NCBI RefSeq assembly: GCF_013122565.1
Contig: NZ_CP053258.1
Source of the DNA: Escherichia coli
GTDB lineage: Bacteria > Pseudomonadota > Gammaproteobacteria > Enterobacterales > Enterobacteriaceae
Length of the DNA: 64,000 nt
Strand: one strand, 5' to 3'
Shown: positions 34,801-37,800 of the stretch, piece after piece
How the letters are laid out: every line of letters starts with the position of its first letter
Position numbering within the stretch: the stretch's first letter is position 1
Program-made: the position numbers

Positions 34801-37800
34801 CCTTCGAGCCGCAGCTGATTAAGAAGCACCAGACGCGCATTACTCAGATGGACAGCAACATTTTATCCCTTTACGCCAAAGGCATGACTACCCGAGAAAT
34901 CGTCGCCACCTTCAAAGAAATGTCCGACGAAGATGTGTCACCCACGCTGATATCTAAGGTCACCGACGCGGTAAAAGAACAGGTTACTGAGTGGCAAAAC
35001 CGACAGCTGGATGCGCTGTATCCCATTGTTTACATGGACTGTATCGTCGTAAAAGTCCGTCAGAATGGGAGTGTGATAAACAAGGCCGTCTTCCTGGTGC
35101 TGGGGATCAATACCGAAGGCCAGAAAGAGTTGCTGGGCATGTGGCTGACCGAAAACGAAGGCGCAAAGTTCTGGCTGAGTGTGCTGACGGAGCTGAAAAA
35201 CCGTGGCCTCCAGGACATTCTTATAGCCTGTGTGGACGGTCTTAAGGGCTTCCCGGATGCGATAAACAGCGTCTTCCCGCAGCCCCATATCCAGCTGTGC
35301 AGCATCCATGTGGCGCGTAACAGCCTGAAATACGTGTCCAAGAAGGACTACAAAGCCGTCACCAGCGGCTTGAAGACTGTCTATCAGGTCCGGACCGAAG
35401 AGGCGGCACTGATGGCGCTCGATGCGTTCGCGGAAGTCTGGGACGATAAATATCCGCAAATCAGCAAAAGCTGGTATGCGCACTGGGAAAACCTCAATAC
35501 GCTCTTCAGTTATCCGCCGGATATCCGCAAGGCCATCTACACCACGAACGCAATCGAATCGCTTATCAGTATGATCCGAGCTGCGATTAAGAAACGCAAA
35601 GTGTTCCCGACGGATGACTCGGTACGAAAGGTTATTTATCTGGCGACCAAAGATGCGTCGAAAAAATAGAGTATGCCGATCCAGAACTGGCGGTTAGCAA
35701 TGAGCCGTTTTATTATCGAGTTCGGTGATCGCCTGAGCGATCACCTTTAATACATTGGCAGTTACACACAATTACTGACAGGCTCCCTGCCATAAGTTAA
35801 TAAAAAATTAACGCATATATAAATAAAAATCACCATAAAGTTATTCTTTCAGAGGGGGGTAGCTAAATACACTTCCGACACAGTGATATGCCGGTTTTCC
35901 TGACAGCATGTTGTGTTTTGCGTCCAGCTCTGAAGGCGTCATTTCGGAAGCAAGATATTTGACATAATGTGTTCCACTTTCATCTTCCCATAACTGAACT
36001 TTGCCTTCCTCAGCAAGCTGTTCCAGAACAGGCTCAAGATCAGCTTTTTTTCTGAGTGAACGATGCAAGCCCTGCATCATGTCACGCCTTAAAAAATCAT
36101 AAGATCCATTTTTAACAAGATGGTTTTCGAGCCACCAGATAACTCTTTCAGAATGCGAAGGCCCTCTGACAGCATCCATTTTTACAATAAAATGGTTAAG
36201 ATACCATTCTGATATTAACAACGCCGCTTCCAACGTTTCGAGCGTAATAACAGTTGAGTCAGGAGTAATAAACAACTGCATCACAGCGGCATTCCTTGCT
36301 GTATGTTCAATGTATCGTGCTGCCCAGTCGCTGTGATGGTACAACTTTTTCCCTGGTTGCATCAGATGTTTTACGTACCTGCCAACATCATGTAGCCGTT
36401 TCTTTGCATCAGGTGAAAAAGTCATACAGATACGGGGGTGATTTTTTTCCCTGCGTTCAATCCCTGCAAGTAAATGTTTTTTCTGAATAGAATAAAACGT
36501 TTCCAGGTCGGACTCATCGCCAGATACCAGCTCATCAATATCAATTAGTCTGCTGAGTAACGTAAGATCCATGGTTAACGTCCGCGCATATACTCCCGTA
36601 GCCCGTACTGTATTGCCCAGCGATTTCAGTGTGCTATCGTGTGGTTCCGGTTGCGTCATCAGCAGCATACCAAGCCGTGGATCCTTAATATCGTAACAGC
36701 CCGTTGACACACGGCTGACCCGATAATCATCACCACACCACAACGTATTAGGAACTGCTGTCTTACGGCGCATAATGCTTTCATGCAGAGCACTTCCCTC
36801 GTCAGACGTGATACCCAGACTGGGATATTCCCCTAGCTCTTTCAAAAGTGCTTCAGCCGTAGGATCCGTTACCGTGAGACGCACTCTCACGGGTTTAATG
36901 GGCTGATTTTTAAGACATTCCTCCAGTTCGTTTCTGGCTTTATCCACTCCATCTTTCTGACGCACTGCTTTCTGAAGCAATTTCTTAAGACTCTTACATT
37001 CTTCATCCCATAGTACGTATTGCCGCTCATACTCCTTCAGCCTAACTGAGAACACATCAGCCAGCTCTCTCTCAATTTGATGAATTTGCGCCATGATGAG
37101 CCTGTATACTGTCGTTTTTCTGCTTCCTGATCTCGCCAGTATTATGTGAAATTGTGACACAGGAACGATAACGCCATCATCAATTTCAACATCATACATA
37201 TCCTGACAGGCCAAGGCCATGCTCCCCTGAAGCGTCGCAAAGATAAGCTCCACCGCTGCTCTTGTTTTGCCATATATACAAAATATAACTTTTTGAAAAA
37301 AATACAAAATCGCTCTGGCGCTCAGATTAACATCATGATTTTCAGTTTTTTTATATGTGAGTTTCATTGCATAATCTCTCTTTAGAAAAAATTAAACACT
37401 TCTGGATGCAATCCACTCATCAACGGAAGTGGAACGACATCCAACGGAGGCAGCACCGAGTCTGACGGGCTTTGGAAACGTTTCGTCGTAATACCTGGAT
37501 TCAGGGTTTAGCTTTTCATAGATAGTTGACCGGGACAGACCGACTATTTTCGTCAGTTCTCTCATACGCAGAATACGTTGCTGTGGCTCTGGTTGGGTGG
37601 TTTGAAAAGATGACATTATCGATTCTCCTGTGAATGTCCGGATGTGACCGAACTTTGGCACAGGATTTGGAATAATGTCCCCGTAAAAGAAACGAAACCA
37701 ACTGCAGGGAGTGACTATGCATACGTTTGCCAATCTGATGTATGATGTTTACCAATCCTTTGGCTTATTCAGTAAAGGGGACCGGCAAGGCGAGATACGG

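What the first reader, a model, noticed from the sequence alone, without database searches (positions are those of the whole stretch)
35841..37616. P4-like alpA plus DUF3987-type gene pair retained next to the IS cluster
Seen in sequence: an AlpA regulator followed 24 nt downstream by a 508-aa protein with a P-loop-like SGSRKTT segment, mirroring the alpA-yfjI arrangement of CP4-57. Inference: this is a remnant of the satellite-phage-like replication and control module; the DUF3987 family assignment is by context.
Basis: partly seen in the sequence, partly recalled or inferred. Interest (0 to 1): 0.3.

Follow-up and report, generated by a model that had tools for sequence, protein, structure and literature searches.

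The report
Island excision regulator plus helicase pair
This is an ordinary, already-annotated pair of genes from an E. coli genomic island: a small AlpA excision regulator followed by a YfjI/DUF3987 MCM-like helicase. Both genes are intact, but the island's integrase, its replication nickase and the probable origin have been broken by mutations and insertion sequences.

Summary

The pair lies in a 31-kb island at tRNA-Ser serX, bounded by a 14-bp direct repeat. Gene order matches CP4-57: int, divergent gene, alpA, yfjI, yfjJ. AlpA and the integrase are P4-like. YfjI is unrelated to the P4 alpha primase-helicase, and no other P4 gene is present.

Both genes are under purifying selection across lineages (dN/dS 0.13-0.15). 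In this window the integrase has an 11-bp frameshifting deletion. The yfjJ-like HUH nickase gene has a nonsense codon. An IS256-family element sits 54 nt past the yfjI stop, removing the candidate origin.

One thing is new: an uncharacterised 614-aa all-helical protein is always encoded divergently from alpA in this lineage. Verdict: already known, low interest.

The parts
37392..37616 (-). alpA: 74-aa AlpA/Vis-family DNA-binding protein, the excision regulator (recombination directionality factor)
   Evidence: Pfam Phage_AlpA 8.9e-16; PHROG 'excisionase and transcriptional regulator'; 47% identity to K-12 AlpA; 39% to P4 Vis; dN/dS 0.13
37368..37391 (-). 24-nt alpA-yfjI spacer carrying the yfjI ribosome-binding site (AAGAGAG). 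No terminator lies here, so the two genes form one operon.
   Evidence: Sequence read; no terminator-like site here
35841..37367 (-). yfjI-family gene: 508-aa DUF3987 protein, an MCM-like (superfamily 6) AAA+ helicase with a C-terminal winged helix
37110..37130 (-). Walker A loop SGSRKTT (residues 80-86). S80, G81 and K84 are invariant in the family. An arginine replaces the usual glycine before the lysine.
   Evidence: Alignments A1 and A2; the model has strand 73-77, a loop, then helix 84-137; relatives carry SGSGK[ST] or SG[ED]RKS
36798..36803 (-). Walker B D189-E190 (…GITSDE…)
   Evidence: E190 is invariant and D189 is conserved in at least 90% of 31 sequences; it follows strand 183-188 in the model
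35955..36155 (-). C-terminal winged-helix domain of YfjI (about residues 405-471)
37617..37716 (.). Conserved divergent control region between alpA and the 614-aa gene. A candidate alpA promoter lies on the minus strand (TTGGTT, 18 nt, CATTAT).
   Evidence: 70% mean column identity across 5 loci whose YfjI and 614-aa proteins are only 28-36% identical to the window's in three of the four relatives (83% and 65% in L002); conserved blocks ATAnTGTCCCCGT and GGAAACCAACC (identities). The promoter reading is inference, because the consensus scan found none here.
37717..39561 (+). 614-aa (616 from the upstream GTG) uncharacterised all-alpha protein, a conserved divergent partner of the alpA operon in this lineage
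35787..35840 (-). 54 nt of native sequence downstream of yfjI. The rest of the yfjI-yfjJ intergenic region, the candidate origin in intact relatives, is missing.
   Evidence: Alignment A6 against L002, L005 and L006; the conserved hairpin motif is absent from the window
34470..35786 (+). IS256-family element (transposase with an internal stop) inserted just downstream of yfjI. It is the right-hand member of the IS cluster, with ISL3 and IS3 fragments at about 32890-34465.
   Evidence: Megablast limits of independent IS copies; RefSeq annotation of A30
32091..32504 (-). yfjJ-like (YagK/YfjJ, inovirus Gp2/G2P-type HUH) gene truncated by a nonsense codon at codon 140. It keeps the HIH motif but loses the C-terminal Y-L-A-K motif.
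   Evidence: T at 32093 versus C in A30, which changes Gln to stop; family alignment A5; Pfam on relatives
41048..42251 (-). P4-type tyrosine integrase pseudogene. An 11-bp deletion near 41200 shifts the frame before the catalytic-Tyr region (…EAAYHRTD…).
   Evidence: tblastn of the A30 integrase splits into two frames; the DNA alignment shows the deletion between GGGATTT repeats; Pfam Arm-DNA-bind_3, Phage_int_M and Phage_integrase
42413..42426 (+). attR: 14-bp direct repeat (CCCCCTCACCGCCA) of the 3' end of tRNA-Ser. It marks the island's right end.
   Evidence: Two exact copies in the window, none expected by chance
11030..11043 (+). attL: the same 14 bp at the 3' end of serX (tRNA-Ser GGA, 10956-11043). 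It marks the island's left end.
   Evidence: flanking ghrA and ycdU as around K-12 serX (the K-12 gene order is from my own knowledge)

Best explanation
The two genes are the excision and replication operon of a CP4-57-type integrative island with a P4-family integrase, inserted at tRNA-Ser serX of E. coli. AlpA is a small DNA-binding protein of the AlpA/Vis family. When expressed, it directs or activates the island's tyrosine integrase to excise the element. YfjI is translated from the same transcript 24 nt downstream. It is an MCM-like (superfamily 6) AAA+ ATPase with a C-terminal winged helix. Its inferred role is to form a ring helicase that unwinds the excised circle for replication. The likely trigger is a nick made by the HUH-motif YfjJ/Gp2-like protein at an origin between yfjI and yfjJ. 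No primase is encoded, so host enzymes must do the DNA synthesis.

Shown here: the family identities, the fold, the conserved catalytic residues, the gene order, the island borders, and purifying selection across lineages. Inferred: helicase activity of this particular protein, rolling-circle initiation by YfjJ, and the position of the origin.

In this window the operon is intact but orphaned. The integrase is frameshifted, yfjJ carries a nonsense codon, and an IS256-family element has cut away the candidate origin. The island can probably neither excise nor replicate without help in trans.
Against: No activity of any YfjI or YfjJ protein from a CP4-57-type island has been reported. In K-12, 789 transposon insertions in yfjI were neutral (bioRxiv 10.64898/2026.05.27.727350). 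The Walker A loop is deviant: arginine replaces the glycine before the lysine, whereas several relatives keep SGSGK[ST], so ATPase activity could be altered. No primase is present, although DUF3987 proteins usually accompany one. tblastn finds no relative in 50,697 phage records. The yfjJ-like gene left of the IS cluster belongs to a different lineage from the one linked to this yfjI lineage elsewhere, so the island is a mosaic. The dN/dS values describe the history of the lineage, not selection in this decayed copy; only 2 synonymous and 2 non-synonymous differences separate it from A30.
Confidence: 0.75

Rival explanations
1. The pair is a remnant of a true P4-type phage satellite: a P2-dependent element whose capsid-size, transactivation and cos functions have been lost, leaving only int, vis/alpA and the replication gene.
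For: The integrase has the P4 domain architecture and 29% identity. AlpA is 39% identical to P4 Vis. The island is heavily decayed by IS elements.
Against: YfjI shows no similarity to P4 alpha, which is Zn_Ribbon_Prim + Toprim + D5_N + DUF5906 + Pox_D5. tblastn of all P4 proteins against the window finds only int and vis in the island, and no sid, delta, psu, epsilon or cI. Intact relatives of the module (L002, L005, L006, L014) also lack these genes. The rest of the island is the CP4-57/CP4-6 gene set: GTPase, DUF932, antirestriction, RadC-like and CbtA/CbeA.
Confidence: 0.05
2. The pair is the core of a minimalist phage satellite of the PICMI type (int + alpA + DUF3987). A helper phage would induce it, and it would be packaged without capsid-remodelling genes of its own.
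For: PICMI satellites are defined by exactly int, alpA and a PF13148 (DUF3987) or PF19263 (DUF5906) 'primase' (PMC10803314). Pseudomonas islands with intY, alpA and a Gp2-like gene are moved by jumbo-phage transduction (bioRxiv 10.1101/2024.08.29.610337). Relatives carry defence cargo: type I RM and CRISPR-Cas.
Against: The island is 31 kb rather than a few kb. It sits at a tRNA gene rather than at fis, and it carries a large non-satellite cargo such as fimbriae and toxin-antitoxin genes. No helper phage is known. In this window the integrase is broken.
Confidence: 0.15
3. The operon is kept because it has been co-opted for a host-level or defence role. AlpA would act as a transcription factor, or YfjI as an MCM/BrxL-like ATPase that interferes with phage DNA. 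Island mobility would not be the reason it survives.
Against: Neither protein hits PADLOC. The BrxL match is far weaker than the MCM matches and reflects the shared AAA+ clade. The int and yfjJ lesions are single recent events that are absent from the 99.4% identical A30 island, so the intactness of alpA and yfjI needs no special selection.
Confidence: 0.05

Closest known systems
CP4-57 cryptic prophage of E. coli K-12 (intA-yfjH-alpA-yfjI-yfjJ)
   Same: Same gene order and strand logic. The integrase has the same three domains. AlpA is 47% identical and YfjI 25% identical over 438 aa (E 1e-40). A YfjJ-family gene lies downstream. The distal island genes match: GTPase, DUF932, antirestriction, RadC-like, CbtA/CbeA.
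   Different: This island is at serX rather than ssrA. The divergent gene is a 614-aa protein unrelated to YfjH. The alpA-yfjI gap is 24 nt rather than 128 nt. Here int, yfjJ and the yfjI-yfjJ spacer are damaged.
PICMI satellites of Vibrionaceae (int, alpA, 'prim' with DUF3987/DUF5906)
   Same: Same three core families. There, AlpA is necessary and sufficient for excision and the DUF3987 gene is needed for replication (PMC10803314).
   Different: PICMIs have about six genes, integrate next to fis and have a known virulent helper phage. This island is 31 kb, sits at a tRNA gene and has no known helper.
AgaPH, the PriCT-DUF3987 helicase of a pAgo-carrying mobile element
   Same: Same Pfam family. 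It has Walker A and B motifs and a small C-terminal domain. It is the only family member with a measured activity: a 5'-3' helicase dependent on ATP or dATP (PMC11724360).
   Different: AgaPH has an N-terminal PriCT domain and a partner primase-polymerase. YfjI here has neither, and its Walker A loop has arginine in place of the glycine before the lysine.
MCM helicases (archaeal and eukaryotic) and the SCCmec Cch helicase
   Different: YfjI has no MCM N-terminal OB/zinc domain. It has a 54-residue helix plus hairpin inserted after the Walker A loop. Sequence identity is only 9-13%.
Satellite phage P4 (int, vis, alpha)
   Same: The integrase family and the Vis/AlpA family are shared.
   Different: The replication protein is a different family, and the genes sid, delta, psu, epsilon and cI are absent.
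Pseudomonas tmRNA islands I23/I44/I55 (intY, alpA, Gp2-like, YqaJ, RadC, defence cargo)
   Same: Shared core set: tyrosine integrase, alpA, inovirus Gp2-like gene, RadC, and a 14-bp att repeat. Distant relatives of this module (L010, L011) also carry YqaJ.
   Different: Different genus and attachment site. The passages I read did not list DUF3987 among the core genes.

Membership tests
DUF3987 / YfjI family (Pfam PF13148; SF6 MCM-like helicases) | Match to the family profile above the curated cutoff | tested here: met
   227.5 bits against a cutoff of 27, E 3.8e-67, profile positions 4-359 of 364
DUF3987 / YfjI family (Pfam PF13148; SF6 MCM-like helicases) | Walker A lysine and Walker B acidic pair | tested here: met
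   K84 and E190 are invariant and D189 is conserved in at least 90% of 31 sequences. The loop lies between a strand and a helix in the model. The glycine before the lysine is replaced by arginine.
DUF3987 / YfjI family (Pfam PF13148; SF6 MCM-like helicases) | MCM-like AAA+ fold with a C-terminal winged helix | tested here: met
DUF3987 / YfjI family (Pfam PF13148; SF6 MCM-like helicases) | ATP-dependent DNA unwinding | not testable with these tools
   Shown only for AgaPH (PMC11724360)
DUF3987 / YfjI family (Pfam PF13148; SF6 MCM-like helicases) | Association with a primase, fused or adjacent (usual but not universal) | tested here: not met
   YfjI has no other Pfam domain. No primase is annotated in the island. 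K-12 YfjI likewise has only DUF3987.
AlpA/Vis family (Pfam PF05930) | Match to the family profile above the cutoff, in a small protein of about 70 aa | tested here: met
   58 bits against a cutoff of 21; 74 aa; 47% identity to K-12 AlpA and 39% to P4 Vis
AlpA/Vis family (Pfam PF05930) | Acts with a cognate tyrosine integrase in the same element | tested here: inconclusive
   A P4-type integrase of the lineage that accompanies this module in L002 (71% identity to the intact A30 copy) lies 3.5 kb away. It is frameshifted in this window.
AlpA/Vis family (Pfam PF05930) | Promotes excision | not testable with these tools
   Shown for CP4So and PICMI115
CP4-57-type integrative island | Gene order int, divergent gene, alpA, yfjI, yfjJ, then GTPase, DUF932, antirestriction, RadC-like and CbtA/CbeA | tested here: met
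CP4-57-type integrative island | Insertion at the 3' end of a tRNA or tmRNA gene, flanked by a direct repeat | tested here: met
   The 14-bp repeat lies at 11030-11043 (end of serX) and 42413-42426
CP4-57-type integrative island | Intact integrase and YfjJ | tested here: not met
   11-bp deletion in int; nonsense codon in the yfjJ-like gene
P4-like satellite | Alpha-type primase-helicase (Toprim + D5/SF3) | tested here: not met
   No similarity between YfjI and P4 alpha
P4-like satellite | sid, delta, psu and epsilon genes | tested here: not met
   tblastn of P4 proteins against the window finds none at E up to 0.01
P4-like satellite | P4-family integrase and Vis | tested here: met
PICMI-type minimalist satellite | Co-located int, alpA and a DUF3987/DUF5906 gene | tested here: met
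   All three lie within 6.4 kb. Definition from PMC10803314.
PICMI-type minimalist satellite | Very small element integrated next to fis | tested here: not met
   31-kb island at serX
PICMI-type minimalist satellite | Induction and packaging by a helper phage | not testable with these tools
   -

The most novel reading that the evidence does not exclude
In this lineage the alpA-yfjI(-yfjJ) operon is always paired with a divergently transcribed 570-930-aa all-helical, TPR-like protein that belongs to no described family. The pairing runs across a strongly conserved 100-nt control region, and the three genes co-diverge. The most novel reading is in two parts. First, this protein would be the island's master sensor or regulator, analogous in logic to Stl of SaPIs or to TPR receptors such as AimR and Rap, and would set whether the alpA operon fires. 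Second, YfjI plus the HUH protein YfjJ would form a self-contained MCM-helicase/rolling-circle replicon for CP4-57-type islands.
Probability: 0.25. Interest if true: 0.45.

Novelty: already known. Interest (0 to 1): 0.15.

Why it matters
For the finding as stated, it matters little. It confirms a correct annotation of a gene pair that RefSeq already names and that occurs in many E. coli islands. The useful outcomes are descriptive:

- The DUF3987 label can now be read as 'MCM-like helicase with a winged helix', not 'primase'.
- The island in this window is immobilised by three independent lesions while its control operon is still intact.
- CP4-57-type islands are common carriers of fimbriae, toxin-antitoxin and defence genes, yet how they replicate and move is not known. 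The conserved quartet found here gives a concrete, testable model for that question. The quartet is the 614-aa helical protein, AlpA, the MCM-like helicase and the HUH protein, together with a candidate origin.

Tried and rejected
- NCBIfam gave no hit for any of the three proteins.
- PADLOC gave no hit for AlpA, YfjI, the 614-aa protein or the integrase, so a known defence system is not supported.
- A sequence search of the PDB with YfjI found nothing; only fold comparison linked it to MCM.
- tblastn of YfjI against 50,697 phage records found nothing, so a recent phage origin is not supported.
- Rfam at gathering thresholds found no RNA family in 30-42 kb.
- The consensus promoter and terminator scan found no sigma-70-like site in the alpA control region and fewer sites overall than in shuffles. 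The promoter I propose there is therefore only inference from conservation.
- Short direct and inverted repeats inside yfjI and alpA look like chance matches and were not pursued.
- I tested whether the 614-aa protein is a distant YfjH homologue. BLASTP gave E 0.18 and hhalign a probability of 0.1%, so this was rejected.
- I searched the window for the conserved hairpin of the candidate origin and found no match.
- The apparent yfjI phenotype in a 2026 preprint was due to a linked thrC mutation, not yfjI.
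Full report
**Observation**

The minus strand carries a 74-aa ORF at 37392-37616 and a 508-aa ORF at 35841-37367, separated by exactly 24 nt. The spacer holds an AAGAGAG ribosome-binding site, and no terminator-like site lies between the genes. The segment SGSRKTT is residues 80-86 of the long ORF, encoded at 37110-37130.

**Identity**

The short protein matches Pfam Phage_AlpA (58 bits against a cutoff of 21, E 8.9e-16). The long one matches Pfam DUF3987 (227.5 bits against a cutoff of 27, E 3.8e-67, nearly the whole profile). PHROGs calls them 'excisionase and transcriptional regulator' and 'DNA helicase'. NCBIfam and PADLOC give nothing.

The same 4-kb stretch is 99.4-99.6% identical in three complete E. 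coli genomes, and about 80% identical in roughly a hundred more. RefSeq names the genes 'helix-turn-helix transcriptional regulator' or 'AlpA family' and 'YfjI family protein'. Against K-12 CP4-57, AlpA is 47% identical and YfjI is 25% identical over 438 residues (E 1e-40).

**What YfjI is**

An alignment of 31 family members reaching 16% identity keeps K84, E190, R219, Q239, R262 and R358 invariant, and S80, G81 and D189 nearly so. An AlphaFold model built on that alignment has pLDDT 88.7 and pTM 0.80. It places SGSRKTT between strand 73-77 and helix 84-137, which is P-loop geometry. D189-E190 sits at the end of strand 183-188, which is the Walker B position.

This agrees with the literature. 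DUF3987 was classed as a superfamily-6, MCM-related helicase family with a C-terminal winged helix (PMC4889955). It was predicted to replace known helicases next to primases of mobile elements (PMC5862659). One member, AgaPH, is a Walker A/B-dependent 5'-3' helicase (PMC11724360).

From the positions in the model, I infer that R262 is the arginine finger, R358 is sensor 2, and the 215-227 hairpin with invariant R219 is the pre-sensor-1 hairpin. These are inferences, not tests.

Two features depart from the usual family picture. The glycine before the Walker lysine is an arginine here; relatives have SGSGK[ST], SGSKKT or SG[ED]RKS. And no primase domain or gene accompanies the protein.

**Context**

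The pair lies in a 31-kb island. Its left border is the 3' end of tRNA-Ser(GGA) serX (10956-11043) and its right border is a second copy of the 14-bp sequence CCCCCTCACCGCCA at 42413-42426. There are two copies in the window and none expected by chance.

Reading the minus strand from the right end, the order is:

- a P4-type integrase;
- a divergent 614-aa gene;
- alpA, then yfjI;
- an IS cluster (IS256 family, an IS3 fragment, an ISL3 pseudogene);
- a yfjJ-like gene and zinc-ribbon pseudogenes;
- cargo (a fimbrial operon and a ydeO fragment);
- GTPase, DUF932, antirestriction, RadC-like, CbeA/CbtA, DUF957 and DUF4942 genes.

This is the CP4-57 order.

**How P4-like it is**

AlpA is 39% identical to P4 Vis. 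The integrase shares the three P4 Int domains and 29% identity. P4 alpha, by contrast, is Zn-ribbon/Toprim/D5_N/DUF5906/Pox_D5 and shows no similarity to YfjI. tblastn of every P4 protein against the window finds only int and vis within the island. YfjI also has no tblastn relative in 50,697 phage records.

The closest characterised parallel is the PICMI family of satellites. Their defining genes are int, alpA and a DUF3987/DUF5906 'primase'. There, AlpA is necessary and sufficient for excision, and the DUF3987 gene is needed for replication (PMC10803314). AlpA is likewise required for excision of CP4So (PMC5148205). Pseudomonas islands with intY, alpA, a Gp2-like gene, YqaJ and RadC are moved by jumbo-phage transduction (bioRxiv 10.1101/2024.08.29.610337).

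**State of the module in this window**

alpA and yfjI are intact. They differ from the A30 copy by 2 and 4 nucleotides respectively. Against the 80%-identical copy in L002, dN/dS is 0.133 for alpA and 0.154 for yfjI. Their partners are damaged in three ways:

- The integrase has an 11-bp deletion between two GGGATTT repeats near 41200. This puts the last 53 residues, including the …EAAYHRTD… region, out of frame.
- The yfjJ-like gene has a C-to-T change at 32093 that turns Gln140 into a stop codon. The YfjJ family has an invariant His-hydrophobic-His motif and a conserved Y-[LM]-[AT]-K motif near the C-terminus, and K-12 YfjJ passes the Pfam cutoff for the ORF2/G2P replication-protein domain. 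The truncation removes the tyrosine motif.
- An IS256-family element (about 34470-35786) lies 54 nt past the yfjI stop codon.

In undamaged relatives, the roughly 300-nt yfjI-yfjJ spacer holds a conserved block (GGTTAGTCGGTATATGTAATATA), TATA-rich repeats and a GGGTAGC…GCTACCC hairpin. I read this spacer as a candidate origin. It is missing from the window. All three lesions are absent from A30, so they are recent.

**Mechanism proposed**

AlpA, made from a promoter in the 100-nt region upstream, would direct integrase-mediated excision at the 14-bp repeats. YfjI, translated from the same message, would assemble as a ring helicase on the excised circle. YfjJ would nick the origin hairpin, and host polymerase would copy the element.

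The steps shown here are family membership, fold, conserved catalytic residues, linkage, borders and purifying selection. The biochemical steps are inferred from relatives. In this window the module is probably inert without an integrase, a nickase and an origin supplied in trans.

**A partner gene not in the finding**

The divergent 614-aa gene (37717-39561) has no hit in Pfam, NCBIfam, PHROGs or PADLOC. It has only 37 relatives among 1.84 billion representative proteins.

In all eight relatives for which upstream sequence is available, it lies divergently next to alpA-DUF3987. These are L002, L005, L006/7, L008/9, L010, L013, L014 and L015. Identities to the window of the three proteins (AlpA/YfjI/614-aa) fall together: 93/83/65, 70/36/36, 76/35/31, 60/29/28 and 40/27/25 percent. 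Its dN/dS is 0.26.

The 100-nt region between it and alpA is 70% identical by column across five loci. In three of the four relatives the YfjI and 614-aa proteins are only 28-36% identical to the window's.

**Verdict**

The finding is real and correctly interpreted, and it is ordinary. It is a known gene pair in a known kind of island, already named in RefSeq. Interest is low. The co-conserved 614-aa partner and the helicase/HUH/origin arrangement are the only parts that go beyond annotation.

Noticed in passing
window 37717-39561 (+); relatives L002, L005-L010, L013-L015: An uncharacterised 614-aa all-helical protein with no hit in any profile library and only 37 representatives in 1.84 billion. 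It is always divergently adjacent to alpA-DUF3987 and co-diverges with them. Its only fold matches are weak TPR-like ones (NprR, AimR, Rap).
   Followed up: partly
window 37617-37716: The 100-nt divergent intergenic region is more conserved (70% column identity over 5 loci) than most of the flanking proteins. The conserved blocks ATAnTGTCCCCGT and GGAAACCAACC could be the alpA promoter hexamers or an operator.
   Followed up: partly
window 41048-42251 (-), deletion near 41200: The island integrase carries an 11-bp deletion between two GGGATTT repeats, relative to the 99% identical A30 copy. The deletion shifts the frame before the catalytic tyrosine region.
   Followed up: yes
window 32091-32504 (-): The yfjJ-like gene has a nonsense codon (Gln140 to stop, T at 32093). 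The YfjJ/YagK family shows an invariant HUH motif and a conserved Y-[LM]-[AT]-K motif, which suggests a rolling-circle nickase.
   Followed up: partly
L002:11717-12017, L005:3837-4123, L006:3824-4139 (absent from the window beyond 35787): The spacer between yfjI and yfjJ in intact relatives has a conserved block, TATA-rich repeats and a GGGTAGC…GCTACCC hairpin, making it a candidate origin of replication. An IS256-family element removed it in the window.
   Followed up: partly
window 39580-39621: A perfect 20-bp palindrome lies 19 nt after the stop codon of the 614-aa gene. As RNA it forms a hairpin of -39.8 kcal/mol (z -7.4) with no T-run after it. An exact-match search of the fetched loci found it only in the A30-type island variant.
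   Followed up: partly
window 39640-41050: A 1.4-kb AT-rich stretch (32-41% GC) between the 614-aa gene and int has no ORF above 111 aa and occurs in only three E. coli genomes. It holds three copies of a 20-nt repeat (40437, 40642, 40878) spaced 205-236 nt apart.
   Followed up: partly
window 42434-43144: A 710-bp insertion relative to A30 lies just outside attR. It carries a 169-aa minus-strand ORF and the STnc490 Hfq-binding RNA (43010-43133). I take it to be an IS200-type element.
   Followed up: partly
window 23993-29190 and 29578-30399: The island cargo includes a complete chaperone-usher fimbrial operon and a truncated ydeO-like AraC regulator, flanked by IS66 fragments.
   Followed up: no
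window 44313-63659: To the right of ycdU, outside the island, lies a long minus-strand cluster. It encodes acyl-carrier, ketoacyl-synthase and ABC-transporter genes, followed by a two-partner secretion pair (a ShlB-type transporter and a filamentous haemagglutinin-like protein).
   Followed up: no
L002, L006, L008 versus the window: The same integrase lineage (71% identity) sits on the yfjJ side of the module in some relatives. In the window and in CP4-57 it sits on the opposite side, so the module has been rearranged relative to int during its history.
   Followed up: partly
YfjI residues 84-153 (window 36909-37118): The model shows a 54-residue helix continuing from the Walker A helix, plus a return helix. 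This long helical hairpin is conserved in the family and absent from MCM. Its role is unknown.
   Followed up: no
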